A stretch of 64,000 bases of DNA from Candidatus Kerfeldbacteria bacterium (GCA_047946875.1 CP181398.1:15154-79153); one strand, 5' to 3'. Shown: positions 12,473 through 51,832, counted from the stretch's first letter. Notes: generated from the letters alone by a model not told the origin. Numbers and translations: made by a program.

Positions 12473-12627
12473 ATACCCTTAAAATATGTTACAATTATAT
12501 CACTATTTTTGTATTTAGACAAATTAATTATCATAGAATTGGGGTGTTCTGGAAATAGCAAATCTGTTAGAAATTGCTAAGGTTAGGTAAATATTGATTT
12601 AATTAAGTAAATTAATCATAAACTAAC

Positions 12628-15600
12628 GTGTTTTTAATAAGAAAAATGCTTAAAAGAAGTATGAAAGGGTCTATTGTTGGCCTTTTTTTAATTTTTTTAC
12701 TCTTAATTTCATTAATCATTACTGAAAATATTGCAAAAGCAGAGATTGATATTCCATCTGAGCAGCCACCAGGGAATAATACAGCAGGTTTTATCAATAT
12801 TAGTGATATTAATCAAGGTAAACAAGGTCCTTTAAGATTGGGAACGAATGATATAGCTTCGCCTTTTAATTATCAATTGGAGGTATTAGGTGGAGGAGCT
12901 GATGCATCTAATGCTACTATACAAAACGACTTACTTATCTCCGACACATTAACTGGAACTAAAAATACTTTAGAAGTGAATTCTACTGACAATAAAGTTT
13001 GTATAGGTGAATGTATGAATATTGAAAATTCTAAGTTGGAAGTAAATGATCAAGGAGTTGTTATTAATCATACATTTGATAACGTCACAGATTCGACTAA
13101 TGCATTACGTGTATATAGTGAAGAGGGAGAAGCAATTTTTGGAAGCGGTACGGAAGGTGGTATTTATAGTTTAAGTACAGGGGATAATAACTCTATTTTT
13201 GGACTCAATGCTGTTGGTACAGCAGTTGAAGGAAATAATGCTTTAGGTACATATAGTTCTATAGCAGGTTTTACTGACACAGGTATTGCAATATATGGAT
13301 TAAACTCAAATTTATTTGGTCTTTGGTCAGCATATTTTGATGGCAGAGTTGAAGTAAGCGGTGATATTAGTGGATCAAAATTTATCTCTACCAATGATCC
13401 AAATTCTCTTGTGCCATATACTTTTGGTCAAGTAGTAAATAGTTTTGACTTTGGCGATAGTGAAATTTTATATCATGATGGTACTTATATTTGGCTGGCT
13501 AGTAATGATCAAATATTAAAAATTAGAGCTAGTGATGGTTTACAGATTTTTGAAACTGTTAATGTAATTACCAATCCCACTTCTATGATATTGGATGGTG
13601 AATACTATTGGGTAGTATTTGATACGGGTGTAATAAAGTTGGATCCAGAAGATGGTAATATTTCATGTTCGATTGTGTTGGATGATCCAAGAAGTATTGC
13701 TTATACAGGAAATAGTTATTGGGTAACAGAGAATGGTACTGGGCAATTTATAAATATTGATAGTGACTGCATTCAGATAGGTAGTGCAGTAGATTTTATT
13801 AATTCTAGTAGTTATACATTAGGAAAGATTATTTTTAATGGAAATTATTTATGGGCTTTAGCCACAAATAATAGTACGCAGGATGGTTTATTAATAAATA
13901 TTAATCCATCCACTGGAGATGCAATTGGTTGGCCAGGATTTACAAATAGTAATCCAATAGATATTTATTACGATAATTATTACTATTGGGTTTTAAATAA
14001 TGATACTCAGGGCACATTAAATAGATTTTATTTGCAAGATAATAATAAAGTTTGTACTGATATTGCGCCAGATGGTAGCCCTTTTTCTTGTGATAGTGAT
14101 GATGATTGTCAAAATGCGACTTTAGGATATTGTAATTTTGCAGTCCCATCTAATTTTGGGTCATATTTACTATCCCAGGATTCTGAAAGAGTTGAGAATA
14201 ATCCAACAAATTTTATTTTTGATAAAAGGAATGTTTGGGTTAATAATAACTGGGTAAATAATGATAGTAGTGAGGGCTCAGAGATTATTAAATTTTCTAT
14301 GGTCGATCCTACTGAGTTCGCGGTAATTAGTTTAGATTCACAAACTAATAAAATCGCGTTTGATCAAACATATTTATGGGCATCTTCTACTCTAGATGAT
14401 TTATTAAAAATTTATTCAGGACAGGGTTATGGCAAAATTGATCTTACCGATACTCTAGCATTACAAAATAATAATAGCTTAAGTACACAGTCAGGAAGTT
14501 TTGATATTTCTGGATCAGTAAAGGTGGATACGAATGTTGACAGTGAAGGAAATTTGAATGCGATAAATAACGTTTGGGGTGAGATGCAGTCGGACGATTT
14601 CATATTATCATCCGAATGGATCGAGACAGGTGATTTAATTTCAAGCTCATCCTCAATATTATCAATAACTTATACTTCGGATGATTTTTTAGTAGTAGGT
14701 GATAAATATTTCGGCCACATTCACTGGTCAGATGACGATGGAGACACTTGGAATGATGCAGGTACATTTGGACAATGGATATGGGGTATTACGGAAGCAA
14801 ATGACGGCACACTTTATGCATCTAGTGGTGATGAAGATAATCTTATTGCCAAAGTATATAAATCAACTGATAACGGTGTGACTTGGGTAGAAACAACCAC
14901 ACCATTTCCTAGTGCTAGTAATCATGCTTATGATTCTATATCGGCCAATGTGGATGGTGTGTGGTATATGTTTTTTGGAGCTAATGATGGAAACGTTTAT
15001 CGAACTTCAGATGGAGGGGATAATTGGTATTCTTCTGCGGTACCTGGAGGTGGGAATGGGAATATCAGTACAATGTTAGCGAGTAGTGATGGTTATATTT
15101 ACGCAGCATCAAAATGGCATAATAATATTATAAGAACTATAGACGGTGGTGAAAATTGGGAGATAATGACAGCAGTGCCAGGTGTATTAGGAATTTATAG
15201 CATTATTGAAGGAAATGACGGAAGTATATTTGTAGGAACCGGAGAAGAAGGGTCGGGTATTTATGCTAATATTTTTAAGTCATCCAATGGAGCAGTAAGT
15301 TGGCAAAATGTACTAAATCTAACCAGTGATAATATTGGTGATGTTCAATCATTAATTAATGTAAATGGAATATTGTATGCTTCTGCTAGGGAGGATCCAA
15401 ATATTGTACATATTTATAGATCTATTGATAATGGTGTTGTCTGGTCTGAGTTAAGTGCTCCAGGAGTTTTTGATGAAATTTATGATATGACTTTTTCAGA
15501 TGATGGAACAGTATATTTGGGTGGTGCGGGGAATTTTCCTAAGCAAGTATATAAAAGTGGATCATTATCTGAGGGAGACCACAGTTGTCCGAATGGTCAT

Positions 15601-15666: not shown

Positions 15667-15671
15667 TATTT

Positions 15672-18600
15672 ATGGAGTTTCTTTTTTCAAAAATTAAAAA
15701 AATTAAAATTAAGTATATTTACTATACTTTTGTAATTGTTGTAATTGCTGTTATTGGTATAGAAAAAGTAAATGCTCAATGGGAAATCCCTACTAATTTA
15801 CCACCAGATAGTAATATTTTTGTACCACTAAATGTAGGGCCTTATAAGCAAGCTAAAGAAGGTGGACTATTACTTGATCCATTATTCAATCCTTATGGAG
15901 CTGAGCCAGATATTGATTACTCTCTGGAAGTGAGAGGTAGTCAAGATGCGTATATTAATAATTTTGAAATTATTCCAGGAGGTAAATTAATAGTTGATAC
16001 TGATACTTTGTATGTAGATGGAGAATTTGATCAAGTAGGCATAGGTACATCAACATTTGAATTATCATCAACATTAGAAGTGCATGGTGGGAGTGTAAAT
16101 ATTGGTCAAGAAGGAGTAGGAAACGGAGTAGCGGGAATTGGTTTAACAGTGAATTCAAATACTGAAAGAGAATTAATTATTGCAGATTCTAATAGTAATA
16201 CGGATCCAACAGTTTTTGGTCAAGGTATTATTGATAGTAACGGTAATGGAGTTTATGGATTGAATGTGGCAAATGGAGTGGGTATTTCTGCTATTAGTAA
16301 TGATGCTTCTGCTGTGGTCGGTACGGTTTCATCTGCGTATGATCCAACAGAGCCAATTGTTGTCGCAGGAATATATGGTAATGCAACTGGGCTTGGTGCA
16401 TGGGCGGGATATTTTCAACAAAGGTTATTTGGTACTGGAGAGATCGTAGCAAATAAATTCTTGCCAAATAGATTGCAAAGTTCTGAAGTACCATATACAA
16501 CTGGCTGGAAGAAGAGCGATATTACAGATAGTGAATTAATTGATGTCAATTATATGACATTTGATAGGCAGTATATTTGGGCTTTGGGAGGTTATTGGTC
16601 AAGTATTAATCCAGAACATGTACTTATAATTGATCCAGACAATATGGGGGTGGTTGATAAAATAATACTATCAAATAACGATCATTATTTAGTAGATATT
16701 ATAGATGGCGGTGGGTATATCTGGGTCGCTCACAATTATAACTATGGTAGTAATCATCAGGCAGCGGTTACTAGAATTGATCCAGCTGATGTGCATAATT
16801 TTCAAACAACATATATTTATCCTGATGCTGGTAGTTCTGGTAATAATGATTCAGAATCTGTAAAGTTATTATATGATGATGAAACACTAGATGGGCCTTA
16901 TATTTGGGTGTTGAATAAATTGAATTATGATCCAGTACATTCAATAACTCAATTGGATATGGATGGAAATGTTGTTGTTACCTTTTCTATTAGTGATTTA
17001 GCTAATGGTGGAAATAAATGCTCTAGATATAATAATTATCTATATAGTGACACTGATCATTGTGATGACCGATTAGATAATGATGATGACGGTATAATAG
17101 ATAATGGGTTGTGTGAATATAATGCTCTGACTACTCCCATAGTGACGGATTCGGCTACTTGTGGAATTGCTGGAGGCACTTGGGTAGAAGCTTGCACTGA
17201 TCGGATTTTTGATAATCAGATAGATTGTGAAGCCGGTTCTGCTGTCTGGGCTGAGACGTGTAGCAATAGTTCTTGTTCTGACTCTGATGAATGTACGTTG
17301 TGTGGCGGAGCTGGTGTTTGGGATTCTGTAGGAGAGGTTTGTCCTGCTGATTTGAATTGTAATACTCAAGTAACCTGCGAGGGTACAGTTACTTGTGATG
17401 GTATTTGGACGGCTGGAGATGATCAATGTTTGGCAGATACTCCATTAGGAGTTTGTGCACCAACGATTTCATTAACTACTTGGGGAGAATGTATTAATGC
17501 TGGTGAGACATGGACATGGAACACTGCCTCTGGACCAGCTAATATTGATGAAAGGATAGTAGATGCATATATAGGGGTACCAAGCGGATTAACACTGGAT
17601 GGTGATGGTAATGTCTGGGTAACATTCCGCGGATCACCTGATTGGGATTATAGAGATATATTTTCTGGTGAAGGTTATGCAAAATTTAATGCTTCAGATC
17701 CAGAGTTGGCAGTAGATCAGTATGTATATTGTTCAGGTCCAGAAACTAGTCCAAGTGGAATAGCTTACGATGAATTAAATGATCAAATGTGGATAACGTA
17801 TGATCCATCCACTATGCATGATAATAGAGGTTTATCTAAAGTGGATGTTAGTAATGGCCAAGTAACTGGATTTATATCTGATAATTTTGGAGCACAGATA
17901 AAATATTTTATGGGCTCGCCTAGTGGGCCATCAATATGGATAAATGGAGGAGGTTCTATTATAAAGATTGATCCAGATACTAACGTAGTTGAAAATACTC
18001 GATATATTTATGGACATGATTTTGATTTCGATGAACGTGATCCTGCTAATCCGCAAATTTTAAGGACTACGGGTGATAACGCTGTTATATTGAAACATAC
18101 TATGGAGGATCCATATACTACTTCTACTAATGTTATTCTGGGTGCAAGCTCTGAAAAACTATTATTTGATGGTACAAATATTTGGTCATCTAATTATGGC
18201 ACTAATACTTTGACTAAATATAGTGCTCAAGGGGCAGAAAAATTAGGAGTGTATGATGTGGGTGTAAGTACGGATCAAATGATATCTGATGGGCAAGCTA
18301 TTTGGGTGCCATTTGAGGAATATTGGACAACAAAATATAAACGAATTGATATATTAAATGGTAATGTTGATGAATATGAATTAGTCCCAGATCTTGGAAA
18401 TACACATCATACCCTTGATACCGTATTTGATGGTAAAAATATTTGGCAAAGTGTTTTTTCTGAAGATCGTGAATCGATGATAATTAAAGTAGATTTATCA
18501 AGTTGTGATTTAGCTACAAAACTATGTTCAGTAGGTTCAGTGTTTAATTATCCTGATACATTAGATGGGCCAGAAAAATTGATATTTGATGGAGAATTCA

Positions 18601-22151: not shown

Positions 22152-22196
22152 AAAATGAATAATTTATCCCCCTGCAGGGGATTATAATAAAAAATT

Positions 22197-24539: not shown

Positions 24540-24549
24540 ATTAATATTT

Positions 24550-25300
24550 AAATAAAGGACGCCTCCGCTAAAGGTGTTCGGGGAAACAAGTTTATATTCA
24601 TCCCCGACAAGTTGGGGTATCTATAGGTTTAGAAGAGACACCTAAAATGATAAATGAATAATTATGCATTTTAAGAAATTTCATCCGCCACATCTATATT
24701 TGGACAATTGTACTTATTTTTTAAGTAGTCGTACCCTTGATAAAAAAAGATATTTTAATACAGATCATAAAAAAGGAATTTTAGCAGATATTTTAAAAAG
24801 TGCTAGTAAAAGATACAAAATTATTTTATACGGTTGGGTTATTTTGGAAAATCATTATCATCTTTTAATTAAAGTAGATAATAAAAAGCAATTAATTAAT
24901 TTTATTAAGACGTTACATGGCAAAAGCGCGATTGAGTTGAATAAATTTGAGAATAAACCTAAAAGGAAAATCTGGGTAAATTACTGGGACAAATGTGTTG
25001 AGAGTGAAAAAGATTTTCATACACATTTAAACTATATACATCATAATCCCATTAAACATAAATATGTAAAAGATATGAGTGATTATAAATATTCAAGTTA
25101 TCAATATTATTTAAGTAAATATGGTTACGAGTGGTTAGAAAATTGTTTTTATATATATCCAATAATTGATTTTACTTCGCAAGATATTTAATAAATTATA
25201 AATTTGAGGACGCCCAAACTTGTTTGGGGAGGAAGTAAGTAAGTACCCCTCAACAAGTTGAGGCATCCATCAGGTAAAATCGAGTCGGGGTATCCACTGG
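24550..25300 (+). mobile_element. IS200/IS605-type (Y1 HuH transposase) element: tnpA flanked by left and right subterminal hairpin units in direct orientation
   Basis: Left unit 24555-24650 and right unit 25206-25300 share GGACGCC...TTYGGGG...CCYCRACAAGTTGRGG. The hairpins ccccgacaagttgggg (24602-24617) and cctcaacaagttgagg (25248-25263) differ by compensatory changes. Size about 750 bp, typical for IS200. Confidence 0.6.
24664..25191 (+). CDS. tnpA: Y1 HuH tyrosine transposase (Transposase_17; IS200/IS605 TnpA or REP-associated RAYT-like)
   Basis: HuH motif NHYHLLIKV. C-terminal catalytic-Tyr region THLNYIHHNPIKHKYV...YKYSSY matches the YIxxNPV signature. 175 aa. Confidence 0.75.
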   Translation: MHFKKFHPPHLYLDNCTYFLSSRTLDKKRYFNTDHKKGILADILKSASKRYKIILYGWVILENHYHLLIKVDNKKQLINFIKTLHGKSAIELNKFENKPKRKIWVNYWDKCVESEKDFHTHLNYIHHNPIKHKYVKDMSDYKYSSYQYYLSKYGYEWLENCFYIYPIIDFTSQDI

Positions 25301-25306
25301 TTAGAA

Positions 25307-25430
25307 AAGGGACGCCCGAATTCGTTTGGGAAATAAGTTAACAATTATCCCCCGACAAGTCGCCCGTCTGCAACGCAAGCTTGCGAGCGGGCAGAGGGCA
25401 TCCGTCAGGAAAGTATAAGTTGAGGTGAAC
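25307..25430 (+). repeat. Third, solo copy of the IS-end-like structured repeat unit. It contains a longer GC palindrome (gcccg...cgcaagcttgcg...cgggc)
   Basis: Shares GGACGCC, TTTGGG and CCCCGACAAGT words with the units at 24555 and 25206. Confidence 0.5.
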
Positions 25431-25460
25431 AGTAAATAAATAAGCTATAATTATATATAA

Positions 25461-31400: not shown

Positions 31401-34400
31401 CCTTTAACTACTTCGAATCCATATGCGATTGATTACGATGGTCAGTATCTCTGGATCACGCACAACAATAATCCTGGCATAGTTACTATATTAAATCCGA
31501 ATGATGGTAGTGAGGTTAATAGTTTCGTTGTTGGTAGTCAACTAAGGGGAATAATACCTTTTAATAATTCAATGTGGGTAGCGAGTCTCGGTGATGATAC
31601 AGTGATTCAATTAGATCCATATACACAGAGTGTAGTGGATACTTACAATGTTGGGGATGAACCGTGGGAACTGACAACAGACAATGACGCAAATATTTGG
31701 ATTACCAATCATGGTTTATCTAAAAATGTTTCAAAAATAAATTTAAGTGACGAATCAGTTAAAGTAGGCTTAGGTTGGATCAGTCTAAATAAGGCTGTTT
31801 GTTCAAATGATTCACAACAAGGATGTACTGATGATGATGAATGTGGAGTGGTTACTGATCTATGTGTAGATACGCCAGCGGAAGAAGTAAGTGAAGATAT
31901 TATCGTGGCTGGTGATCCACCGTCTGGAGATGTTGCTTATGGCTTTTGTTATGATAACGATGCTCCTTCTTCTGGTGAAAAATATGGAGAGTGTTCGAAA
32001 ACAACTGGTCAAAGTTGTACAGAATCTGATTTAGCAAACTGCTTAGATATTGAAGAGTATTGTATTTATTATACTTGCCAAACTGGTGATATATGTATTG
32101 ATCCTGTTTCTCCCCCAAGTCCTGCGGGTTGGGTTAAAGAATGTCGAGATACTGCAACTGCGAATTTCAATGGAGAGACTAGAGAGATAGAGGGATGGGC
32201 AAGAATATTGTCATCAAAAAAACAAGGCGAACAATATACACCTCCTTTTGATGATTGGGGTTGGATAAAACTTGGTGGACAATATGACGATGGCGAAGGA
32301 AATACAGGCGATTATAATTTAGCTGGAACGGAAATTGATTCTCAGTTATTTTTAGGTGATCCAGATGTATCTGGTGATAGTTTATCACTATATACAATAT
32401 TTGGTTGGGGGTGGAATGCTGATATTTCAGATTATACGGCAACTTCAGATTGGTTACCGTCTATAAATATTAGTAATAATTTCGCTGCGAGACGTGGACT
32501 TGAACGCGTTCATAATTCGGCCATGATCTTAGATTCGAACGGTGATCCACATATTGCTTGGGAAGTTTTTGATACTGTTCATCTTTATTATGATATTTAT
32601 TATCTAAAGTTGGTAGCAGGTAAATGGTTTACGATATCGGGAGTTGAATATCAACCTGGAGCGATGGATCCCTTTGGTTCTATGTTAAGTGTAGGATATG
32701 GATCTGGTTTATATGACGATGGGAGGCATATAAGATTTCCTTCATTAGCTCTTGGCGCTGATGATTACCCTCATCTAGCCGGAGCTTATGAAGAGAGTGT
32801 CTGGAGGGGCAGCCAAAATGAGGGGGGCGATATAATCTATACAAAATGGAACGGCTCTCAGTGGACAAGTTCTGATGGTGTAACATCAGGTTATGATGTA
32901 GTTGGTGGGGAAGCTAGTGATGATGATCATGCTCAAGTTCCAATTTTGAAACTTAATGATAGCGATGTTCCGAATATTGTGTATAGAGTAGGAATATCTG
33001 GTTATGGTGATATTTATTTTAAAGTTTGGGATGGTCGGATTTGGAATACTATTGATGGAACTTCGGATAGTTTGAATGTTAGTAACATTACTAATTCTAG
33101 TTCAGTAACTCCAAAATTAATAATGGATGGTAATACTCCACATATTGTATATATAGATAGTGGATTGGCTAAATATAGATGGTGGGATGGTACTAACTGG
33201 GTATCAGCAGGTCTTGATGAGCCTTTTGACACATATGTCTGTTCTAATAATTTTTTAACAAGTTGTACCGAGGCTACTGAACAAGCGGATTGTGGATGGT
33301 ACTGTCATGATAATTCAGTCAACGCTGGTAATCTATGTTCTGTTGATATTGATTGTGGCACTGATTATTGGGCACAATGTTTACATAATAGGTGTGAGAG
33401 TGAAGATGTGGCAGTTAATTGGGGATTGAAGACATGTAATGGTTTTGTAGATGGAACTAAATGTTACGACGACGATGATTGTCCTGTGAGCTTGGATTGT
33501 CAGAAATTATCTAATATTGAGTGGAATGTATATGGAACAGAGGCGGCTAGTTTTGATTTGTATGACGAAAGCACTCCTGGAGTTGTATTCCGTGGTTCAA
33601 CTGGAATTTATTATCTTAGGTGGGATTCAACTATTGATAACGGTGACGGAACATTTGGCGCCTGGGTGTCAGTCAGTGGTGGAGATCTTGAATCATCAGA
33701 TTTGGTAATCTCTAATGCTGGAGGGAGAGCAGGACGTGTTCCTTCTGTAATTATTGGAGATGATAATTATCCCAGAATTATTTGGGGAGAAGAAATTTCA
33801 AATCTGTCAGATATTACTTATAAACAGTGGGATGGGTCTCAATGGCAAACTATAGATGGTATAGCATCTCCTTTACCACCTGCACCACCAAACGTAGCTA
33901 ATCAATCTGCTTATATTTCTGAAACTCCTGCTGTTCAGTCATATAGTCCTTCTGTACAACTAGATCGATTTGGTAATCCTCATGCACTTTGGTCAGAAAT
34001 TAATTATAGCGGTTATTCTTGTGGTGAGTTTGGTAATGGAGGTGTTATTGATGGTATTGATGGGGATATTCATGATATAGAGATTGATTATGATAATAAC
34101 GCTATTTATCTAGCCGGTGTCTCTGATGATGGTGGAGTACCGCATTGGCGAATAGATAAAAGAAGATTTGATACAGGGGCATTAATTGCAGCTTTTGATA
34201 CTGATGGTTTTATAAATGGTGATGCTGATACTCTTTCGGCTTGGAATATAGAATTAGACAAAGATAATAATAATTTCTATATTGTTGGTAGAGAATCAGT
34301 GGGTGATGATTGGCGATTGGAGAGGAGAAATATGGATACTGGTAGTATTGATTGGCCAGACAATCCAAGCGGGGTCGTTAGAATGGGTTATGGTAATGCT

Positions 34401-37400
34401 ACCGACGGAATAGATCTAAAAATTGATAGTGAGAATATATATATAACTGGAGTTGATGATAGTGATAATTGGCGGATAGAAAAAAGAAGTAAAAATAATG
34501 GAAATTTAGTTACGAATTTTGGTACTGATGGTTTTATTATTAGTACGGATGGAAATAATGCGAAAAAAATATTGATCGATGATACTTATATGTGGGTAGT
34601 TGGTCAAGATGATAATCTCCATTGGAGGATTGAAAAGCGATTATTAAGTAATGGTGATTTAGTTACTACATTCGGTAATGCAGGAATATTTACTGGCTCT
34701 TCGACTAATCCAGATAGTGGAAATATTTATGATGTTACGATTGATGGTGATAATATTTATATTGTTGGGAAAACTACTGATAATAATTGGTTGACTGCTA
34801 AATTGGATATTAATTCAGGAATATTGGATGAGGATTTTGGTGTGGATGGATATGTAGAGACATCCTATGCATCAGCTGTTAATTTTATTTATGGTATAGA
34901 GGTCAGTGGTGATGATATTATTATTGCTGGTAGTTTAGGTGATGGTTTAGATAATGATTGGCATTATGAAATAAGGAATAAAAATACAGGTATTATTAAT
35001 GAAATTGTTGTAAATAATGGTTGGCAAAATGGTTTAATTGATTCTGTCAATGGTAGTTTGGTTTGGGGAATGGACGGTGATGATGATTATATGTATATAT
35101 TTGGTAATGATGATAGTGGTAATTGGCGAATAGAAAGACGATGGAAATCAACTGGTACATTAGATAATCACTATAATACAAATGCTTTTAGTGATTGCAA
35201 AGATCCAGAATATCCTATGTGTATATATACTTCGCCATCGTTCGAATGTCTGGGTGGGGATATATTTTATAGTCGTTGGACACCAGGAAATGTCCAAGGT
35301 GGAATAGGTTGGGTAGAATTCATGCCAGCCGGAGCTCTACTTGGAGTACCGTGGGTTCAGACTGCTTTTGCAGATATCTTTGGTACAGAGGGTGTTAGTT
35401 TATCTCCTCCGCCACGTGGTAGTGGAGAATACACTGCGACATATTTGATTTTATCTAACGGTAGTATTGAAGGCATACCTACGTATTATTATGGCGATAG
35501 TAGTCGGCAACCATCAACTCAATTTTATGAAGGTGGATTAAATCCATTGATTGAGGGATCTAGTCTTCCGTTTGGTGAAGATGCACTATCAAAAATTAAT
35601 GTCGATGCTTTAGTATCTGGGCCGGACTTTAATAGATATGGGCATCCTTTAACAACAGTTACACAAAGTGGTATTGATATTAGTGATAGCAGTCAATTAG
35701 GTGATTCACCTTTACTAAATGGAGGTGTTTATCATTATATCGGAAATGCATCGATAGACGATGAAATGACTTTTATAATAGGTGATTCAGATCCAACTCC
35801 AGCAACAGATCCAGAAACAACAGGAAATGGATTAATAGTTATAGATGGTGATCTAGAAATAAATGCCAATACTTATTATGAGGCAGGTGTTTTGGCAGAT
35901 ATTACAGAGATGCCATCGGTAGGTCTTATTGTCCGAGGTAATATTTATATTAGTCCTTTCGTGACAGAGTTAGCCGGAGTATTTGTAGCTTTAGACAATC
36001 CTGATACAGCAGATATTTCGGAAGGTATTATTAGTACAAGCAGAAAGAGCCCACTTATAACTGAGACAGCAGATAATGATGATGCTTATGTATCTGTAAT
36101 TGGTTCGGATTATGATAATACTAATCAAACTGTTCCAGATAATGAATCATTAAAATTTGGTAAAGAAGTTGCCGATATTGGCAATTATCAATTTAGATTA
36201 AAGGCAACTTTAAATACAAATTTATTAGGGGTAACGAGCACTGAGCCAAATATTCCTATCATGGTAAGAGTTGGGGATGTTGGCACTGCTCCATTTGATG
36301 ATTTTTGGTTGAATAATTCTGACGATATAAACGGTTATGATATCAACTTTGCAGATGCTGATGGTACACCATTAGATTTTCATATTGAAAAATTTGAAAA
36401 TAACCAAGAAATAATAGTTTGGGTTCAAGTCCCACAACTAGATATTAATTCTTTAAATGACTATATTTGGATGTATTATGGTAGTGTTTCTCCTGTTAGC
36501 CAGCAGGATGAAAATGGCACTTATAATAGTGAATACGTTGGAACTTGGCATCTGAATGAAACATCTGGAGATCGTCATAATTCGACCAGTACAATTTCTA
36601 TTGATGGTGTGCCATCAGCATCACTGGCAAATGAACCTGGCGGTATTGCAGCAGGAGCTGATAAATTTGATGGTACTGGAGGAACTCTGGATAATGGCTA
36701 TTGCTTTGAAGGTTTAAATACTGGCGGCGTGAATAATCTTTGTAGGTATGATATTGATTGTGAGGACCCTGCAGGAACTCTTTGTACAGATGTTCAAGGA
36801 GGATCTAATCCTGGTGGTTGTATGGTCCCAGACCCAACAGGAAGTTATCTTGAAATGCCTATTAATATACTTAGTGGAGCTGGTAACTTTACTATTGAAG
36901 CTTGGGTGAGAACTTCTACAACTGATAATTTGGTTACTATAATCGAACAAAGAGATGAGAATAACGCGGGTGATGGTAGTTATCAGCTTAGGATTTATAA
37001 TGGAATAGAACTTCATTTTTACTATTGGCAATATTTTCCTGGTATTAGCTTTAGTATTTCAGCAAATGATTCTAATTTAAATAATGGAAGTTGGCATCAT
37101 GTAGCAGTTACAATAAATAATACAAATGATGAAGCTATACTATATATTGATGGAGTTGCGGAAGCTACTAGGATAGATATGACAGATATAATTGATATAG
37201 ATGCTGAAAATAGTACTTATGTAGGTGCAGATATTTCCAATACAGGTGGTCATGGTTGGCCTTGCTATAAAGTAGATAGTTATTTTAATGGAGATATTGA
37301 TGAAATTAGGATATCTAATACAGTACGATCAGCTGAATATATTCAGGCAACTTATCTTGCAGAAAATGGTTCTAGTTCATTTATAACTTGGGGGACTCAA

Positions 37401-38663
37401 GAAGAAGTTGAAAATCAAACTGATCGTACATTTTTAAGATTTCCGTTCGGACCAGGTACTATCAATGATATATTACCAAATTCAGAAATTAGGAATGCAT
37501 ATCTAAATCTAACGGATGATGGTAATAGTTCTAATGGTCCGTTTGATGCAAAAATATATTTAATTGATTATGGTGATGTGGTTGAATTTACAGTAGCAAA
37601 TTGGCCTGCTCAAGATTTGTACAATGTTAATGTATCTAATGGTATGACTTATAGTATTGATACTAATACTTGGGATAGTACTATAGATTCTGAGAATATG
37701 AGTGTGGATATTAAATCTTTGATTCAGAGGTATGTAAATAGTGATGAATATGGTCAATCTTATGCTGATGGAGATATTACATATCTTGGTCTTGTTATTA
37801 ATGAAGGTGATGCCGACGTTGGAGATTTTAGATCATTCTATTCTCAAGAAGATACTACTGGCCATGCCCCAGAATTAATTGTCGAACATTCACCACGAAG
37901 AACATATTTAACTATTGATCCTTCAAATGTAAATGATGATGTTCACGCTTGGGGTAGCGCTGCGGGTGAATATTCATTAAATTCTAGTTGTCTGTATGTT
38001 GGTAGTTATTCAAATAATCCTAATAGAATTTTCTATCGTTTTATACCAGATACAGCCTATACAATATTACCTGATAATTCTGAAATTATTGAAGCTCATT
38101 TAAGATTAAATAATACTGGTTGTGCGACTGGAACAGAACCTTTTCAAATACGACAAGGATTGTTAAATAAAAATGTAGCGGGAACAACTTTTAATGATAT
38201 GCCTACAATTTCATCTAATCCATATAATTTTGGATTAACTCAAGACGTTTTTGAAGTATCACAAGAGTTATTAGAAAATGAGTTTAATAATTCAAATATT
38301 GTATTAGATGATATCTCAAATTTAGTTCAGTCATGGATAGATGATACTATCGTTAATTATGATTTTGGTAATGATATTGGTTTAAGGTTGCGACGTGGTA
38401 ATAAATCTTCAGAGATTATAAACGGAGCAGGTGAATATAGAGCTGTCAGTGAAGATGCTTCGATTTTGGAAGTTGATTATTTAGTACCATTACAGGTTAG
38501 TGGACTTTTCGTTGCTCGTGGATATAATTTTGATAGAAAGTATACCAAAGATCTTGCTCCGTCCGAAAGGATTGTGTATGATGGTAGGGTAGTAGCAAAT
38601 ACGCCACCCGGACTTGCTGATTTTTCTAAAGCACTTCCAATTTATCAAAGAGTAGCGCCGTAA
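25461..38663 (+). CDS. Giant (4400 aa, 13.2 kb) membrane-anchored surface protein: N-terminal TM, Fn3-like modules, Vgb/NHL-like propeller repeats, Cys-rich modules, delta-60-like repeats and a C-terminal LamG/ConA-like lectin domain
   Basis: N-terminal TM VLIILCVAVVLAAGLFSLIYF. Blades DGTDLWISND, DGQYLWITHNNN, DANIWITNHG. WRIDKRRFDTGALIAAFDTDG-type repeats. LamG-like segment GTWHLNE...FTIEAWVRT...SWHHVAVT...FNGDIDEIRISN. Confidence 0.75.
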   Translation: MSKLTKKSIQVLIILCVAVVLAAGLFSLIYFTQHTPQQKHYVIKEVPPDPETVIDKVVQESGRNYIDKRDDEGNLVFNEDGALTRIFYGADIFYQTEDGDYQDIDTTIVTAQGDYDYENTTNVSKTYFKAETQEDDFIKYEVAGERGVTFSFAGVDKSTPEVSSNTITYPDIYEGIDAKYTISGSKILEELIVEEEPIVDRIDQNIKLQDVYYKEQDNGSITFHDNATGHIVFFAIQPIMYELEESTGFKKQIDESESMEVENLTFSYGLHYEITEADNGDIVISKVIDDEGRKWLEQANYPVAIDFTFSAIDSTVALSGESLRHNWSGTNYYMTTPATISRVGNLNTSVARWYYRSFFSFDTGSEWASYGSSDIVGAKFTFYMWKTGTCSNCAVYDYQGDCRWNTHPCWQHRCGLCTNAGGDVGEESASGISANSGADIWDSLPYHPGGNGFSDAYYNVVMTPEGAVDLNGIPTTQAECSANPDDCKREVFVGIDSVSQTGETQIALFDTSGLTVNEGNWKGVRTFNSGSGALDPTLEVVYMPKFDINVVPLDSDEMLTIEWDDNSDNESGWELQRCIDPTPVDPPFECDDSDYFDANHVSFSPIPTGDSSDSCGTDCTYTCTTTEVETVGGCTIDNDGLESDSLYYYRGRIIHVSDLVSGPTSVWSEDDDGSGYNHEWTRATEILSSVLELSSPVWDSLRIYGGGSPTDAYIDSHVNSNPLHTKYALGVRDEDTWRNCFAEDSGGGIYTFQLPITTNPYTVDFAHNMVWWMTDVFGWQMTAAINVESTDDCQIYPNREFKLCEWAQDTRSPDNYLNTPTSYENCSLDTGKAYSRARDPSPPTFINNDPYGGYFPAITVQMDTTPFSLPVTTLNPSDTEYAMSVTNVNTGKTKFFGDTSDLQEWTMGQPVIPDWGTQFLWNNNNPRTVYNLESATCYKFRAISKNGEPTEVGEVGEDESWGFPDSDEFPSEAEGGFTDDLWSVGYPSEEYCTPLSPPDQPTVTCGFNQEKSIIIKPKVLSQLINDDDKSILSIKTANASVKLADANSEGYYCDVSFTDDINTGTIYYKIQRCARSDIGSCADGDFITVSSNSTLKSFIDESVFPGLACDINNEVYEYRVQADNTIVEPSDWSTVAEDILPPCQPTPAPTANNFQKQTMTFNWTAPLFGSPISGFNSGYYTYLLDSPTDLSPVKRFQSVLFLTTYTPLPSLYTNTPYYFEVSGVDDRSREGVRSPQGGPFYTLADNPNFTVECGYDSSDYCTVDITNHGLNDVENHPPDYCLSRKVGSSSSWRYYNYEKSNWGISGPATCDGQTSDYWRSAKTDYTTSWSLTDYNLTCNTLYTYRIEAKNDVGIVTPSPHEESDTTTICPPLNVRHTYNGYLSGYRIRVAWDNPPPTIPPTLPDEIRIYKDATCGGDYEVMPTGSTETDNSTDPNYGTDASLYANIEKPYSVCYYKDGVLGRPGDGDLNAYTSIQTPTGVSFSSVTKDSMVVNYRGTLTRLSGNSLDFYMSYTNGGSGGSNPSWIPGSYNDTGLSTNYQYCYRVRAKNNETGAYTTGDYTNYGPAGDQDDCKYTLASIPKRPVRSQVDSSTVNVIIREGDGNPHGIGLADDTDYAICVTEYNIDGSVYQEGYVQNNNTVNWLPPPEKCGDSDTGVSWDTRAGWGLDSGVDITGVESSKKFGFSVKARNGDDINTNFGPEATLFLVKNNVVGWAWSANIGWVSLNCLNFFKDQDYGFSCDPGEHWGINTSYEPTRTINPVEGYAWSASGQALKETLSISETTQIGVNAGPKGITYDSETPGGPYVWGVVWASDHILFRLNSVDLTFDTFLIGTAGDDLRDIVLANGYLWITANTTGKLYKVDPANPSGGAVDTLDFETSAFISGCASEDCHPFHIAYDGTDLWISNDVANNEGLIFRVNTNDGLERNCDGTEFSGNNNDRCNLGTTYSGWPFVLNNDVWVVNKLPLGVSKISIADGSISSYPLTTSNPYAIDYDGQYLWITHNNNPGIVTILNPNDGSEVNSFVVGSQLRGIIPFNNSMWVASLGDDTVIQLDPYTQSVVDTYNVGDEPWELTTDNDANIWITNHGLSKNVSKINLSDESVKVGLGWISLNKAVCSNDSQQGCTDDDECGVVTDLCVDTPAEEVSEDIIVAGDPPSGDVAYGFCYDNDAPSSGEKYGECSKTTGQSCTESDLANCLDIEEYCIYYTCQTGDICIDPVSPPSPAGWVKECRDTATANFNGETREIEGWARILSSKKQGEQYTPPFDDWGWIKLGGQYDDGEGNTGDYNLAGTEIDSQLFLGDPDVSGDSLSLYTIFGWGWNADISDYTATSDWLPSINISNNFAARRGLERVHNSAMILDSNGDPHIAWEVFDTVHLYYDIYYLKLVAGKWFTISGVEYQPGAMDPFGSMLSVGYGSGLYDDGRHIRFPSLALGADDYPHLAGAYEESVWRGSQNEGGDIIYTKWNGSQWTSSDGVTSGYDVVGGEASDDDHAQVPILKLNDSDVPNIVYRVGISGYGDIYFKVWDGRIWNTIDGTSDSLNVSNITNSSSVTPKLIMDGNTPHIVYIDSGLAKYRWWDGTNWVSAGLDEPFDTYVCSNNFLTSCTEATEQADCGWYCHDNSVNAGNLCSVDIDCGTDYWAQCLHNRCESEDVAVNWGLKTCNGFVDGTKCYDDDDCPVSLDCQKLSNIEWNVYGTEAASFDLYDESTPGVVFRGSTGIYYLRWDSTIDNGDGTFGAWVSVSGGDLESSDLVISNAGGRAGRVPSVIIGDDNYPRIIWGEEISNLSDITYKQWDGSQWQTIDGIASPLPPAPPNVANQSAYISETPAVQSYSPSVQLDRFGNPHALWSEINYSGYSCGEFGNGGVIDGIDGDIHDIEIDYDNNAIYLAGVSDDGGVPHWRIDKRRFDTGALIAAFDTDGFINGDADTLSAWNIELDKDNNNFYIVGRESVGDDWRLERRNMDTGSIDWPDNPSGVVRMGYGNATDGIDLKIDSENIYITGVDDSDNWRIEKRSKNNGNLVTNFGTDGFIISTDGNNAKKILIDDTYMWVVGQDDNLHWRIEKRLLSNGDLVTTFGNAGIFTGSSTNPDSGNIYDVTIDGDNIYIVGKTTDNNWLTAKLDINSGILDEDFGVDGYVETSYASAVNFIYGIEVSGDDIIIAGSLGDGLDNDWHYEIRNKNTGIINEIVVNNGWQNGLIDSVNGSLVWGMDGDDDYMYIFGNDDSGNWRIERRWKSTGTLDNHYNTNAFSDCKDPEYPMCIYTSPSFECLGGDIFYSRWTPGNVQGGIGWVEFMPAGALLGVPWVQTAFADIFGTEGVSLSPPPRGSGEYTATYLILSNGSIEGIPTYYYGDSSRQPSTQFYEGGLNPLIEGSSLPFGEDALSKINVDALVSGPDFNRYGHPLTTVTQSGIDISDSSQLGDSPLLNGGVYHYIGNASIDDEMTFIIGDSDPTPATDPETTGNGLIVIDGDLEINANTYYEAGVLADITEMPSVGLIVRGNIYISPFVTELAGVFVALDNPDTADISEGIISTSRKSPLITETADNDDAYVSVIGSDYDNTNQTVPDNESLKFGKEVADIGNYQFRLKATLNTNLLGVTSTEPNIPIMVRVGDVGTAPFDDFWLNNSDDINGYDINFADADGTPLDFHIEKFENNQEIIVWVQVPQLDINSLNDYIWMYYGSVSPVSQQDENGTYNSEYVGTWHLNETSGDRHNSTSTISIDGVPSASLANEPGGIAAGADKFDGTGGTLDNGYCFEGLNTGGVNNLCRYDIDCEDPAGTLCTDVQGGSNPGGCMVPDPTGSYLEMPINILSGAGNFTIEAWVRTSTTDNLVTIIEQRDENNAGDGSYQLRIYNGIELHFYYWQYFPGISFSISANDSNLNNGSWHHVAVTINNTNDEAILYIDGVAEATRIDMTDIIDIDAENSTYVGADISNTGGHGWPCYKVDSYFNGDIDEIRISNTVRSAEYIQATYLAENGSSSFITWGTQEEVENQTDRTFLRFPFGPGTINDILPNSEIRNAYLNLTDDGNSSNGPFDAKIYLIDYGDVVEFTVANWPAQDLYNVNVSNGMTYSIDTNTWDSTIDSENMSVDIKSLIQRYVNSDEYGQSYADGDITYLGLVINEGDADVGDFRSFYSQEDTTGHAPELIVEHSPRRTYLTIDPSNVNDDVHAWGSAAGEYSLNSSCLYVGSYSNNPNRIFYRFIPDTAYTILPDNSEIIEAHLRLNNTGCATGTEPFQIRQGLLNKNVAGTTFNDMPTISSNPYNFGLTQDVFEVSQELLENEFNNSNIVLDDISNLVQSWIDDTIVNYDFGNDIGLRLRRGNKSSEIINGAGEYRAVSEDASILEVDYLVPLQVSGLFVARGYNFDRKYTKDLAPSERIVYDGRVVANTPPGLADFSKALPIYQRVAP
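34070..35170 (+). repeat. Degenerate delta-60-like tandem repeats within the 4400-aa gene
   Basis: About 6-7 units with motif Y(I/M)xG...DNWRIEKR...G.LD..FG. Confidence 0.6.
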
Positions 38664-40242: not shown

Positions 40243-40314
40243 AATTGTAAATAATAGTCTTTCTAGTATGACATTTACTAAATTTGTGACATGTAAAAAA
40301 TAGGCTATTTTGCC

Positions 40315-43123: not shown

Positions 43124-43134
43124 TTAATACAAGA

Positions 43135-44088: not shown

Positions 44089-44100
44089 ATATTTAAATAT

Positions 44101-51830: not shown

Positions 51831-51832
51831 TT

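What the first reader, a model, noticed from the sequence alone, without database searches (positions are those of the whole stretch)
12628..38663. 26-kb island of four consecutive giant surface proteins (1012, 2159, 780 and 4400 aa) directly upstream of a type IV pilus locus
Three tandem genes (12628, 15672, 22197) share a paralogous N-terminal module that begins with a signal anchor and an (E/Q)W(E/I)xPSxxPP element. All three, and the 4400-aa protein, carry the same W-containing propeller blades (DG.Y.W...). The island further combines BNR/Asp-box, delta-60-like repeats, Cys-rich DxDxDG modules and a LamG lectin domain. A 13.2-kb gene is exceptional for a small low-GC genome. Next to a pilus machine, this looks like a dedicated cell-attachment or host-interaction apparatus of an episymbiotic CPR-type bacterium. 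The N-terminal module shared by the first three genes resembles no family I can name.
Basis: partly seen in the sequence, partly recalled or inferred. Interest (0 to 1): 0.75.

Follow-up and report, generated by a model that had tools for sequence, protein, structure and literature searches.

The report
Giant surface-protein genes fused to pilus operon
A tiny-genome Patescibacteria (Kerfeldbacteria) bacterium spends 2% of its DNA on four huge, previously undescribed surface proteins that always sit, in the same order, in front of its type IV pilus genes, so they are most likely part of one conserved cell-attachment apparatus rather than a mobile island.

Summary
The ORFs of 1012, 2159, 780 and 4400 aa are intact, and the 4400-aa protein is recorded on four contigs. 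The genome is a 1.31-Mb Candidatus Kerfeldbacteria MAG. The first three proteins share a ~240-aa N-terminal module, a 7-bladed FDGxxxW propeller, and a two-Cys C-terminal knob. About 75 database clusters have this same layout. None is named or matched by Pfam or NCBIfam, and all named ones are Patescibacteria.

It is not an island. In at least 11 other genomes the order P1-P2-P3-P4 is fixed next to ClpC-M48-LemA. In 9 further loci the P4 C-terminus is followed within about 200 bp by pilM-pilO-pilB-pilC-pilin.

The giant protein is an expanded form of a ~500-aa protein. That small protein lies directly upstream of pilM in a distant relative. About 3900 aa of fn3, propeller, delta-60, DUF2341/LamG and DNRLRE modules have been inserted into it.

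The N-module is distantly related to tail-fibre-like proteins, but its fold could not be predicted.

Function is inferred, not shown: pilus-coupled adhesion or host recognition. I rate it a new variant of a known kind.

The parts
12466..12495 (+). Best sigma-70-like promoter match (TTGACA-18-TGnTACAAT, 11 of 12) in the divergent intergenic region upstream of P1
   Evidence: sequence read. This is a consensus match only. Promoter-like sites overall are no more frequent than in shuffled sequence.
12628..15666 (+). P1 (1012 aa from the GTG start; alternative starts at 12646 and 12661). Layout: signal peptide (res 1-38, ...AKA|E); N-module (res 39-271); 7-blade FDGxxxW propeller (res 272-601); YSGxG...NNxWG linker; inserted BNR/Asp-box propeller (res 690-975); two-Cys C-terminal knob (res 987-1012, ends CSPI).
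   Evidence: Sortilin/BNR_2 matches are below cutoff. NCBI name: WD40/YVTN/BNR-like repeat-containing protein.
15672..22151 (+). P2 (2159 aa). Layout: signal peptide (...VNA|QWE); N-module (res 36-280); two FDGxxxW propeller regions (res 285-1260) interrupted by Cys-rich segments with DNDxDG motifs at res 464 and 1149; first half of the C-terminal knob (Cys 1311).
19659..22112 (+). P2 delta-60 (DUF5122) region. It holds 14 repeats, read as two 7-repeat units that are 55% identical. The region is inserted between the two conserved cysteines of the C-terminal knob. The protein ends ...TLMCRPL.
   Evidence: Pfam DUF5122 30.6 bits against cutoff 27. TIGR02608 70 bits against cutoff 76.5. Repeat positions. 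Internal duplication E=3e-140. The orthologue P0003 lacks the insert.
22197..24539 (+). P3 (780 aa), the minimal family architecture. Layout: signal peptide (...VNA|EWI); N-module (res 35-270); 7-blade propeller (res 272-605); C-terminal knob (res 606-780; Cys755 and Cys777; ends CWEL).
   Evidence: AF2 model. Foldseek. Family alignment A5.
24664..25191 (+). REP-associated tyrosine transposase (RAYT, Y1_Tnp) gene between P3 and P4. It is flanked by three copies of an element of about 90 nt, GGACGCC...ATCC, starting at 24557, 25208 and 25310.
   Evidence: NF047646 102.9 bits against cutoff 80. Pfam Y1_Tnp. Repeats. A RAYT sits at the same position in L011.
25461..38663 (+). P4 (4400 aa). It has an N-terminal transmembrane anchor (res 10-32) and then a very long extracellular chain.
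   Evidence: NCBI XOU94464 'DUF2341 domain-containing protein', recorded on 4 contigs.
25566..26555 (+). P4 conserved N-domain (res 36-365). It is 25-42% identical in the clade's orthologues. No family match.
   Evidence: Weak DUF7948 match, E=0.008.
27048..30530 (+). P4 variable fn3-rich region (about res 530-1690). Pfam fn3 hits at res 1149-1229 and 1476-1551.
30546..30830 (+). P4 core block 1: GWAWSxNIGWVS-type motifs (res 1696-1790). Collinear with res 22-127 of the 499-aa pilM-upstream protein P0185.
30843..31760 (+). P4 inserted 7-blade FDGxxxW/YVTN-like propeller (res 1795-2100).
   Evidence: TIGR02276 26.8 bits against cutoff 27.85.
31761..32450 (+). P4 core block 2: further GW motifs and a Cys-rich segment (res 2100-2330). 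GWGWNAD matches P0185 res 208-217.
32463..34010 (+). P4 repeat region with recurring D-x-x-G-x-P-H-I/L-A/V-W motifs (res 2335-2850). It may be another propeller. It is conserved within the clade but absent from P0185.
   Evidence: Read from the translation. Conserved at 22-33% identity in L032-L037. The fold was not tested.
34038..35180 (+). P4 delta-60 repeats (about 6, res 2860-3240). They are 30-33% identical to those of P2.
35190..36215 (+). P4 core block 3 (res 3244-3585): GIGWVEFMP...PPPRGSGxYT...GNGLIVIDGDLEINAN...IVRGNIYI. Collinear with P0185 res 223-437.
   Evidence: No PDB, Pfam or NCBIfam match.
36330..37346 (+). P4 inserted DUF2341 (res 3624-3688) and Laminin_G_3 (res 3793-3962).
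   Evidence: E=2.5e-11 and E=4.1e-21, both above cutoff.
37368..38480 (+). P4: two DNRLRE domains (res about 3970-4340).
   Evidence: NF033679 54.7 bits against cutoff 34, 2 stretches. Alignment A8.
38487..38660 (+). P4 core C-terminal motif ...VSGLFVARGYNFDRKY...VYDGRVVANTPPGLxDF..LPxYxRVxP. This is the most conserved part of the protein. It is shared with P0185 at 53% identity.
38690..39064 (+). 23S-rRNA-IVP (four-helix-bundle) gene inserted between P4 and pilM. It is absent at this site in all 10 other loci that show this junction (L011, L030-L037, L038).
39103..48230 (+). Type IV pilus core operon: pilM (39103-40242); 691-aa protein (40461-42536); pilO (42533-43123); 317-aa protein (43135-44088); pilB (44101-45873); response regulator (45897-46286); pilC (46302-47504); pilin (47691-48230). 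A terminator-like hairpin lies at 48262-48295.
   Evidence: The same gene order follows P4 in L030-L037.
48347..56654 (+). Distal pilus genes: GT2 glycosyltransferase; Wzy_C/TPR O-antigen-ligase-like protein; second pilin (51327-51830); prepilin peptidase (52282-53085); three N_methyl minor pilins (53082-55162); 500-aa unknown protein (55152-56654).

Best explanation
This is a vertically conserved, co-oriented gene block of about 44 kb in a Kerfeldbacteria-type Patescibacterium. It joins two sets of undescribed surface proteins to a complete type IV pilus (T4P) machine.

P1, P2 and P3 are ancient paralogues. Each has four parts: a Sec signal peptide with a conserved Ala at position -1; a module of about 240 aa that begins at the mature N-terminus with (E/Q/A)W-x-E-P-x3-PP; one or two 7-bladed propellers; and a C-terminal knob closed by two cysteines and ending C-R/W/S-x-L. 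The N-module is distantly related to tail-fibre-like proteins. Extra binding domains are inserted into or just before the knob: a BNR propeller in P1 and two delta-60 propellers in P2.

P4 is anchored in the membrane by an N-terminal helix. It is a roughly nine-fold expanded version of a protein of about 500 aa that lies directly upstream of pilM in a distant relative. Its four core blocks are kept in order. About 3900 aa of fn3, propeller, delta-60, DUF2341/LamG and DNRLRE modules have been inserted between and before them.

Most likely mechanism (inferred): the pilus-associated core of P4 places a long multi-lectin chain at or near the pilus machine. P1-P3 form fibre-plus-propeller appendages. 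Together with the pilus they recognise and hold a host cell or a surface glycan. Lineage-specific swapping of the inserted modules would tune specificity.

Shown: gene integrity, domain content, family membership, fixed order and orthology, and linkage to pilM. Inferred: export, surface display, oligomeric state, ligand binding and co-transcription.
For: The exact products are recorded on 4 contigs and the organism is named.

N-module family:
- N-module paralogy.
- An exhaustive profile search gave 666 hits. About 75 cluster representatives carry the whole module at res about 30-275 of proteins of 630-2100 aa.
- All of these have blade motifs, and 73 of the 149 top representatives held on file end in C-x-x-L.
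- Ala at position -1 is at least 90% conserved.
- The P3 model shows a confident 7-blade propeller and a C-terminal domain.

Conserved order:
- Fixed order ClpC-M48-LemA-h170 <-> P1-P2-P3-P4 is seen in L002-L011 and L039.
- Each tandem gene scores about 1.3-5x better (2-3x or more in most cases) to the window paralogue at the same position in 8-9 of the 10 loci L002-L011.

Linkage to the pilus:
- The P4 C-terminus is followed within about 40-200 bp by pilM-...-pilB-RR-pilC-pilin in all 8 metagenome loci and in L011.
- The 499-aa protein P0185 lies directly upstream of pilM in a genome whose PilB is only 45% identical. It is collinear with P4 blocks 1696-1815, 2312-2321, 3281-3517 and 4343-4393.

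Domains:
- Binding-type domains.
- Insertions sit inside the knob.
- Accessory domains differ between orthologues: RCC1 in L039, and P4 lengths of 2418-4400 aa.

Tail-fibre link:
- 15 of 25 N-modules hit phrog_5906, and a few hit tail-fibre PHROGs.
- Relatives P0103 and P0130 end in Peptidase_S74.

Transcription:
- No terminator-like hairpin lies in any intergenic gap between P1 and the pilin gene. The first strong one is at 48262.
Against: - There is no experimental or expression evidence of any kind.
- No recognised cell-wall or membrane anchor was found on P1-P3, so how they would stay on the cell is unknown.
- AlphaFold2 could not fold the N-module. pLDDT was 54 with 25 sequences, and residues 30-140 stayed below 50 in the whole-protein model. 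'Fibre-like' therefore rests on weak sequence relations only.
- The tail-fibre link is thin. Only 3 of the 149 top representatives on file have an S74-like end, and no match was found in 50,697 phage genomes.
- The link between the P4 core and pilM outside this clade rests on one genome, L038.
- The propellers, LamG and DNRLRE domains are generic. They could equally serve enzymes or a structural coat.
- A RAYT gene and an IVP gene interrupt the block in this genome, so a single transcript is not assured.
Confidence: 0.6

Rival explanations
1. P1-P4 are general envelope or coat proteins, such as an S-layer-like or fibrous surface layer. They would be needed for cell integrity, and their position next to the pilus genes would reflect only shared envelope biogenesis. 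They would not be host-recognition adhesins.
For: The block is a fixed core feature of the lineage, not a variable one. It sits next to the envelope and protein-quality-control genes M48, LemA and ClpC. P1-P3 lack any known anchor, as S-layer proteins that self-assemble often do. Vampirococcus giant proteins were proposed to make a fibrous surface (PMC8080830).
Against: Accessory binding domains are swapped between orthologues: BNR, RCC1 and delta-60 in the knob position, and P4 length varying from 2418 to 4400 aa. That pattern suits ligand specificity better than a lattice. The P4 core occurs as a small protein bound to the pil operon in a genome that lacks P1-P3 at that locus.
Confidence: 0.2
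2. They are secreted or surface-bound enzymes, such as glycoside hydrolases, lyases or sialidase-like propellers. They would attack the host cell wall or scavenge polysaccharide, as proposed for giant genes of predatory Omnitrophota.
For: There are sub-threshold matches of the P1 Asp-box propeller to Sortilin/BNR_2 and to an F510_1955 glycosylhydrolase model. LamG, DNRLRE and fn3 domains often accompany carbohydrate-active enzymes. Giant genes have been linked to cell-wall degradation (bioRxiv 10.1101/2023.11.21.568195, listed, not read).
Against: No catalytic domain reaches any curated cutoff in 8351 aa. The F510_1955 match scores 31.5 bits against a cutoff of 175. The best structural analogues of the propeller are non-enzymatic scaffolds: WD40 proteins, BamB and YncE.
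Confidence: 0.1
3. It is a remnant of a prophage or a phage-tail-like element. On this view P1-P3 are tail fibres, and the block is a horizontally acquired island.
For: There are PHROG tail-fibre and tail-protein matches for some N-modules, and relatives carry S74. GC content is raised relative to the flanks, 0.34-0.42 against 0.28-0.32. A transposase-family gene lies inside the block.
Against: No other phage gene was found between 1 and 64 kb in the ORFs scanned. The N-module gave no tblastn match in 50,697 phage genomes. P1-P3 lack the S74 domain. The block has the same chromosomal neighbours and order in at least 11 genomes. The higher GC fits the Gly/Asp/Thr-rich composition (inference).
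Confidence: 0.03
4. It is an assembly or annotation artefact, in which the 13.2-kb ORF is a chimera or hides frameshifts.
For: None found. Repetitive proteins can in principle be mis-assembled.
Against: The identical 4400-aa product is recorded on 4 contigs, including one of 1.31 Mb. There are no DNA-level tandem repeats in the region. Orthologous uninterrupted ORFs of 2418, 2996, 3133 and more than 3500 aa share the same N- and C-termini.
Confidence: 0.02

Closest known systems
Giant membrane/surface proteins of CPR bacteria, e.g. Vampirococcus lugosii (ten proteins of 1392-4163 aa; Moreira et al. 2021, PMC8080830)
   Same: The host is an ultrasmall-genome CPR bacterium. The proteins are very long and membrane-associated, built from interaction domains (WD40-type propellers and others). 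They are encoded alongside a rich T4P repertoire and were proposed to mediate host recognition and attachment.
   Different: The proteins here belong to families that no source names. They form a fixed four-gene array that is physically joined to pilM and conserved across many genomes. One of them can be traced to a small pilus-operon protein. None of this is described in that paper. Sequence relatedness to the Vampirococcus proteins was not tested.
PilY1/PilC-type type IV pilus adhesins (Pfam PF05567)
   Same: They are Sec-exported non-pilin proteins encoded with pilus genes. Their C-terminal part is a 7-bladed beta-propeller, and they act in adhesion (established knowledge).
   Different: No PF05567 match was found in P1-P4. 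The N-terminal module, the knob and the C-x-x-L end differ. P1-P4 are encoded upstream of pilM, not in the minor-pilin operon. This is a resemblance in working principle only.
Phage tail fibres/tailspikes with a C-terminal intramolecular chaperone (Peptidase_S74, PF13884), and bacterial 'tail fiber domain-containing' proteins
   Same: Distant relatives of the N-module (P0103, P0130) combine the same N-terminal motif and Gly-rich GVYG repeats with an S74 domain. Some N-modules hit tail-fibre PHROGs. The overall plan is a stalk followed by a distal binding head.
   Different: P1-P3 have no S74 domain, no phage neighbours and no match in phage genomes. Trimer formation is untested.
Type IV pili as drivers of episymbiosis in Saccharibacteria (PMC9894109, PMC12206443)
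   Same: The pilus machine is the same (PilM, PilO, PilB, PilC, PilD, pilins) and the host group is CPR. In those organisms the pili are experimentally required for host association.
   Different: The one of those papers that was opened (PMC12206443; PMC9894109 was not read) describes pilins and machinery. A term search of it found no giant proteins or conserved gene upstream of pilM. The organism here belongs to a different class and is uncultured.
Giant genes of Omnitrophota (bioRxiv 10.1101/2023.11.21.568195)
   Same: Very large multi-domain extracellular proteins in small-celled, probably predatory or symbiotic bacteria.
   Different: Those proteins are far larger (tens of thousands of aa, per the abstract) and are linked to cell-wall degradation. 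No relation to them was tested here.

Membership tests
Type IV pilus system | Assembly ATPase (T2SSE), platform protein (T2SSF), PilM/PilO alignment proteins, prepilin peptidase, and pilins with the N_methyl motif | tested here: met
   PilB E=1.5e-129, PilC E=4e-59, PilM E=6e-44, PilO E=1.6e-5, Peptidase_A24, and five N_methyl proteins. No pilT was seen inside this locus.
delta-60 repeat / DUF5122 beta-propeller | Score above the curated cutoff of PF17164 or TIGR02608 | tested here: met
   P2 scores 30.6 bits on PF17164 against a cutoff of 27. TIGR02608 scores 70 bits, below its cutoff of 76.5. P2 has 14 WRIEKR-type repeats. The P4 repeats are 30-33% identical to those of P2.
Laminin_G_3 / DUF2341 / DNRLRE / fn3 domains | Score above the curated cutoff | tested here: met
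   Laminin_G_3 76.1 against 27.6; DUF2341 44.3 against 23.4; fn3 29-30.8 against 25. DNRLRE 54.7 against 34.
BNR/sialidase-type or Sortilin-Vps10 propeller | Score above the Pfam cutoff; Asp-box S-x-D-x-G-x-x-W repeats | tested here: inconclusive
   Sortilin-Vps10 27.6 against 33. BNR_2 23.9 against 31.4. Five Asp-box motifs at P1 res 701-932.
Phage tail fibre with intramolecular chaperone | C-terminal Peptidase_S74 domain; phage gene neighbourhood | tested here: not met
   No PF13884 match in P1-P4. No phage tblastn match. The neighbours are chromosomal. Only distant relatives carry S74.
Phage tail fibre with intramolecular chaperone | Homotrimeric fibre fold | not testable with these tools
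   Only monomer AlphaFold2 was available, and the N-module came out at pLDDT 54 or lower.
PilY1/PilC pilus adhesin | Match to PF05567 (Neisseria_PilC); gene located in the minor-pilin operon | tested here: not met
   No such match at E<=0.01. The genes lie upstream of pilM.
Genomic island (horizontally acquired) | Patchy presence among relatives, an integrase or tRNA boundary, and variable neighbours | tested here: not met
   The neighbours and order are the same in L002-L011 and L039. The paralogues are positionally orthologous. The only mobile-type gene is a RAYT, and one sits at the same site in L011.
Known surface-anchoring classes (LPXTG sortase signal, SLH and similar) | Pfam/NCBIfam match to an anchor domain or motif | tested here: not met
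   No such family appears. P1-P3 instead end in the conserved C-R/W/S-x-L.
P1-P3 family (unnamed; defined here) | Signal peptide; (A/E/Q)W-x-E-P...PP N-module of about 240 aa; FDGxxxW propeller; YSGxG...NxWG; C..G.F.KGI...C-R-x-L at the C-terminal end | tested here: met
   All three window proteins and about 75 cluster representatives show every element. In P2 the knob is split by the delta-60 insert.
P4-core / pilM-upstream protein family (unnamed; defined here) | N-terminal hydrophobic helix; GWAWSxNIGW(I/V)S motifs; GNG-LVV-G-L-I-N block; C-terminal VYDGRVVANTPPGL; gene immediately 5' of pilM | tested here: met
   P4, the P4-like proteins of L011 and L030-L037 (L030, L031, L034 and L036 hold only C-terminal parts, so only the later features can be checked there) and P0185 share the blocks, in order. 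All precede pilM. In the window a 124-aa IVP gene intervenes.
REP-associated tyrosine transposase | NF047646 above cutoff | tested here: met
   102.9 bits against a cutoff of 80.

The most novel reading that the evidence does not exclude
Two linked ideas remain open.

1. The protein of about 500 aa with 'GWAWS' motifs that lies upstream of pilM (P0185 type) may be an unrecognised, widespread structural component of Patescibacteria type IV pili. It would act as a base- or tip-associated scaffold. This lineage would then have inflated it into a 4400-aa multi-lectin arm.

2. The three always-co-inherited paralogues P1, P2 and P3 may assemble through their tail-fibre-like N-modules into one heterotrimeric fibre. 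That fibre would carry three different propeller heads.

Together these would make a pilus-coupled host-recognition organelle built partly from phage-fibre-like parts.
Probability: 0.12. Interest if true: 0.8.

Novelty: new variant of a known kind. Interest (0 to 1): 0.55.

Why it matters
How Patescibacteria find and hold their hosts is one of the main open questions about this very large, mostly uncultured part of bacterial diversity. Type IV pili are so far the only attachment component tested genetically, and only in Saccharibacteria.

This locus offers three concrete leads:
- A defined, conserved set of candidate partners for the pilus in a different class: three fibre-plus-propeller proteins and one membrane-anchored giant.
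- Two protein families that no database names.
- A traceable route by which a small pilus-operon protein became a 4400-aa giant through domain insertion.

If a P0185-type protein turns out to be common upstream of pilM, it can be tested directly in the genetically tractable Saccharibacteria. If not, this remains a well-documented lineage-specific example of the known 'giant surface protein' theme.

Tried and rejected
- Two of the three word-index homologue searches gave a single hit each, and the third gave few full-length hits. Only the exhaustive profile search revealed the family.
- AlphaFold2 of the N-module alone, with 25 sequences, gave pLDDT 54.5 and no usable fold. In the whole-P3 model residues 30-140 stayed below 50. 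No fold search on the N-module was therefore meaningful.
- Foldseek against PDB and BFVD returned only generic propellers. The afdb50 library was not available.
- Profile searches of PDB sequences found nothing significant. The queries were the N-module, P4 core block 3, the P4 C-terminal region and P0185.
- tblastn of the N-module against 50,697 phage records gave no match.
- The first attempt to scan genome contigs failed because the 25-sequence alignment had no conserved stretch to search with. A 5-sequence subgroup alignment worked.
- Tandem Repeats Finder found no DNA-level repeats in the giant genes. Recent repeat amplification and assembly collapse were therefore rejected.
- An Rfam search of the RAYT-flanking repeats gave no match. 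Their folding energies are unremarkable, with z-scores of -0.8 to -2.1.
- Prophage, island and artefact explanations were rejected, as set out under the rivals.
- Literature searches found no description of these families. The 2026 'Pam pilus' preprint concerns different proteins, Ig-like pilins in Saccharimonadia and Microgenomatia.


Full report
**What is there**

- P1: 12628-15666, 1012 aa, GTG start.
- P2: 15672-22151, 2159 aa.
- P3: 22197-24539, 780 aa.
- P4: 25461-38663, 4400 aa.

Two small genes interrupt the series:
- A REP-associated tyrosine transposase gene at 24664-25191 (NF047646, 102.9 bits).
- A 23S-rRNA-IVP gene at 38690-39064.

A complete type IV pilus locus follows. In order it encodes pilM, a 691-aa protein, pilO, a 317-aa protein, pilB, a response regulator, pilC and a pilin. 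Then come a GT2 glycosyltransferase, a Wzy_C/TPR protein, a second pilin, the prepilin peptidase, three minor pilins and a 500-aa unknown. LigA begins at 56645.

The exact P2, P3 and P4 products are recorded in NCBI for a Candidatus Kerfeldbacteria MAG. Each is recorded on 4 contigs, the longest 1.31 Mb. The window matches a 79-kb contig, SWBX01001492.1. The four genes take about 2% of that genome, and P4 alone takes 1%. An artefact is excluded for practical purposes. There are no DNA tandem repeats in the region. Uninterrupted orthologues of 2418 to more than 3500 aa exist elsewhere.

**The P1-P3 family**

The three N-termini are paralogous over about 270 residues (30% identity; E=3e-26 and 3e-18). 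P1 and P3 align over about 610 residues.

A profile of the module was searched against 1.84 billion representative proteins and gave 666 hits. About 75 of them carry the whole module at residues 30-275 of proteins of 630-2100 aa. Reading those proteins shows one architecture:
- A signal peptide with a nearly invariant Ala at position -1.
- A mature N-terminus (A/E/Q)W-x-E-P-x3-PP-x-x-N...Q-x-K-x-G-x-L.
- A VDTDTLYVD...VGIGT segment.
- Gly-rich GVYG repeats ending in WAGYF-x-GR.
- FDGxY/I-W blades.
- A YSGxG...N-x-WG linker.
- A terminal C-x-x-G-x-F-x-KGI...I-x-C-R-x-L.

Of the 149 top representatives held on file, 73 end in C-x-x-L. Every named member is a 'hypothetical protein' from Patescibacteria. 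No Pfam, NCBIfam or PDB entry matches the module.

AlphaFold2 of whole P3 with 35 homologues gave these results:
- A confident 7-bladed propeller at residues 270-610, pLDDT about 88.
- A moderately confident C-terminal domain.
- Beta-strands at pLDDT about 70 for residues 146-252.
- No fold for residues 30-140.

Foldseek found only generic 7-blade propellers. The best TM-score normalised to the target was 0.74, to YncE.

**Accessory domains sit in or next to the knob**

In P2 the two conserved cysteines are 845 residues apart. Fourteen delta-60 repeats lie between them, arranged as two 7-repeat units that are 55% identical. The orthologue P0003 has the uninterrupted knob.

In P1 a propeller with five Asp-boxes lies between the N-x-WG linker and the knob. 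The P1 orthologue in L039 carries RCC1 repeats instead.

**Relation to tail fibres**

- Fifteen of 25 N-modules match the unannotated phrog_5906 (best E=4.8e-10). A few match tail-fibre or tail-protein PHROGs.
- More distant hits share only the N-terminal motif and the Gly-rich repeats.
- Two of them, P0103 and P0130, end in a Peptidase_S74 intramolecular chaperone domain (E about 1e-17). That domain is a hallmark of trimeric fibres.
- P1-P3 themselves lack S74, and the N-module has no match in 50,697 phage genomes.

The stalk-like, possibly trimeric nature of the N-module is therefore a lead, not a result.

**Not an island**

A scan of one genome per species returned 10 Patescibacteria loci with full N-modules, L002-L011. 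Three of them are labelled 'uncultured Gammaproteobacteria' in automated TPA records. That is probably a mislabel, given ClpC identities of 72-75% to the window.

In all 10 loci the order is ClpC-(369-aa membrane protein)-M48-LemA-170-aa protein on one strand. P1-like, P2-like, P3-like and P4-like genes diverge on the other strand. L039 shows the same arrangement.

In 8-9 of the 10 loci each tandem gene's N-module scores about 1.3-5 times better to the window paralogue in the same position than to the other two, and 2-3 times or more in most cases. The triplication therefore predates these species, and all three copies are retained.

The raised GC of the block fits its Gly/Asp/Thr-rich composition. 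This is inference.

**P4 and the pilus operon**

A metagenome scan with the P4 C-terminus found 8 loci. In every one the P4-like gene ends 40-200 bp before pilM. The same operon follows: pilM, a 691-aa homologue, pilO, a 317-aa homologue, pilB, a response regulator, pilC and a pilin. L011 shows the same junction. L032 and L037 show P3-like, P4-like and pilM on a single contig.

P4 orthologues range from 2418 to 4400 aa. They share five blocks: residues 1-365, about 1470-1790, 2100-2330, 3244-3585 and 3964-4400. All end in ...VYDGRVVANTPPGLxDF..LPxYxRVxP.

A profile search with the C-terminal region found one more distant protein, P0185 (499 aa). Its gene lies directly upstream of pilM-pilN-like-pilO-pilB-pilC-pilin. 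That genome has 44% GC over the 17.5-kb locus, and its PilB is only 45% identical. The upstream neighbours there are LepA, RecJ and RNase H, not P1-P3.

P0185 is collinear with four of the P4 core blocks only:

| P0185 residues | P4 residues | Feature |
|---|---|---|
| 22-127 | 1696-1815 | GWAWSxNIGWVS motifs |
| 208-217 | 2312-2321 | GWGWN motif |
| 223-437 | 3281-3517 | core block 3 |
| 441-494 | 4343-4393 | C-terminal motif, 53% identical over the last 50 residues |

P4 is therefore best read as a small pilus-operon protein into which about 3900 aa have been inserted:
- An N-domain and fn3 repeats before the first core block.
- A YVTN-like propeller after the first core block.
- A further repeat region and delta-60 repeats before the third core block.
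- DUF2341, Laminin_G_3 and two DNRLRE domains before the C-terminal motif.

P0185 and the core blocks match nothing in Pfam, NCBIfam or PDB.

**How it most likely works**

Shown:
- Intact genes.
- Signal-peptide or anchor features.
- Binding-type domains.
- Fixed order and orthology.
- Tight linkage of the P4 core to pilM.

Inferred:
- P1-P3 are exported and cleaved after the conserved Ala.
- P4 is a type II membrane protein with a very long outward chain.
- The proteins act with the pilus in recognising and holding a host cell or surface glycan.
- Exchange of inserted modules tunes specificity.

The best promoter-like site lies just upstream of P1 (12466-12495, 11 of 12). No terminator-like hairpin occurs in an intergenic gap until 48262, after the pilin gene. 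This is compatible with long transcripts, but it rests on consensus matching only.

I give this explanation 0.6. The rivals are a structural coat (0.2), surface enzymes (0.1), a phage remnant or island (0.03) and an artefact (0.02).

**Comparison with what is known**

The general theme is published: giant membrane proteins with interaction domains in CPR bacteria, proposed to bind hosts alongside type IV pili. One example is Vampirococcus lugosii (PMC8080830). Pili are experimentally needed for episymbiosis in Saccharibacteria (PMC9894109 and PMC12206443, listed; only PMC12206443 was opened).

I found no description of the following:
- The P1-P3 family.
- Its fixed triplet.
- The conserved array joined to pilM.
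- The derivation of the giant from a small protein upstream of pilM.

PilY1-type adhesins work in a similar way, as an exported propeller protein with a pilus. Membership of that family was tested and not met.

**Verdict**

CPR origin, the unnamed module and non-accidental pilus linkage hold. 'Island' does not. Function is untested.
- Novelty: a new variant of a known kind.
- Interest: 0.55.

Noticed in passing
window 24557-25415 (and L011 12026-12496): The RAYT gene between P3 and P4 is flanked by three copies of an element of about 90 nt, GGACGCC...ACAAGT...ATCC, starting at 24557, 25208 and 25310. These are the only intergenic copies of the GGACGCC head motif in the 64-kb window; three further heptamer matches lie inside P2. 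There is no Rfam match. A RAYT that is only 30% identical occupies the same P3/P4 gap in L011, so it looks like an old resident rather than a recent insertion.
   Followed up: partly
window 38690-39064; L004 17512-17775; L011 3144-3473: A 23S-rRNA-IVP (four-helix-bundle) gene sits between P4 and pilM only in this genome. Related copies sit at other positions of the same block in other genomes: between P3 and P4 in L004, and between M48 and LemA in L011. These small genes seem to move around the locus.
   Followed up: no
L038 8001-9500 (protein P0185): A 499-aa protein with GWAWSENIGWVS motifs and a VYDGRVVANTPPGL end lies directly upstream of pilM in a distant genome. It matches no Pfam, NCBIfam or PDB entry. 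It may represent an unrecognised pilus-operon family.
   Followed up: partly
window 48347-51287: A GT2 glycosyltransferase and a Wzy_C (O-antigen-ligase-like) protein with TPR repeats lie between the two pilin genes. This suggests pilin glycosylation.
   Followed up: no
window 39103-56654; L036 9137-10216: No pilT-like retraction ATPase was seen in the window's pilus locus. The related locus L036 has a second, PilT-like ATPase ORF between the response regulator and pilC.
   Followed up: no
window about 12000-12600: GC skew changes sign exactly at the divergent intergenic region. It runs from about -0.16 to +0.04 (mostly negative) upstream and +0.2 to +0.37 from P1 onward. From 12.6 kb to 58.7 kb every large gene is on the + strand. 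Whether this marks a replication feature or only strand and composition bias was not examined.
   Followed up: no
L006, L008, L010 (record titles): Three TPA MAGs labelled 'uncultured Gammaproteobacteria bacterium' carry this Patescibacteria-type locus, with ClpC 72-75% identical to the window. The taxonomic labels are probably wrong.
   Followed up: no
window 12628-12663: The P1 start is ambiguous. It could be GTG at 12628 (1012 aa), ATG at 12646 (1006 aa, as on other contigs) or ATG at 12661 (1001 aa, NCBI XOU94460).
   Followed up: partly
L039 3403-8471: The P1 orthologue in GCA_018813575.1 is called as two genes (281 + 1389 aa). It carries RCC1-type repeats in addition to faint BNR matches. 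It is an example of accessory-domain exchange, or of a frameshift.
   Followed up: no
L019 9515-10096 (candidate division WWE3): A homologue of the P4 N-domain (res 110-320, 29% identity, E=1e-17) occurs in a WWE3 genome, outside the P4 context. That domain is therefore a separate, more widespread module.
   Followed up: no
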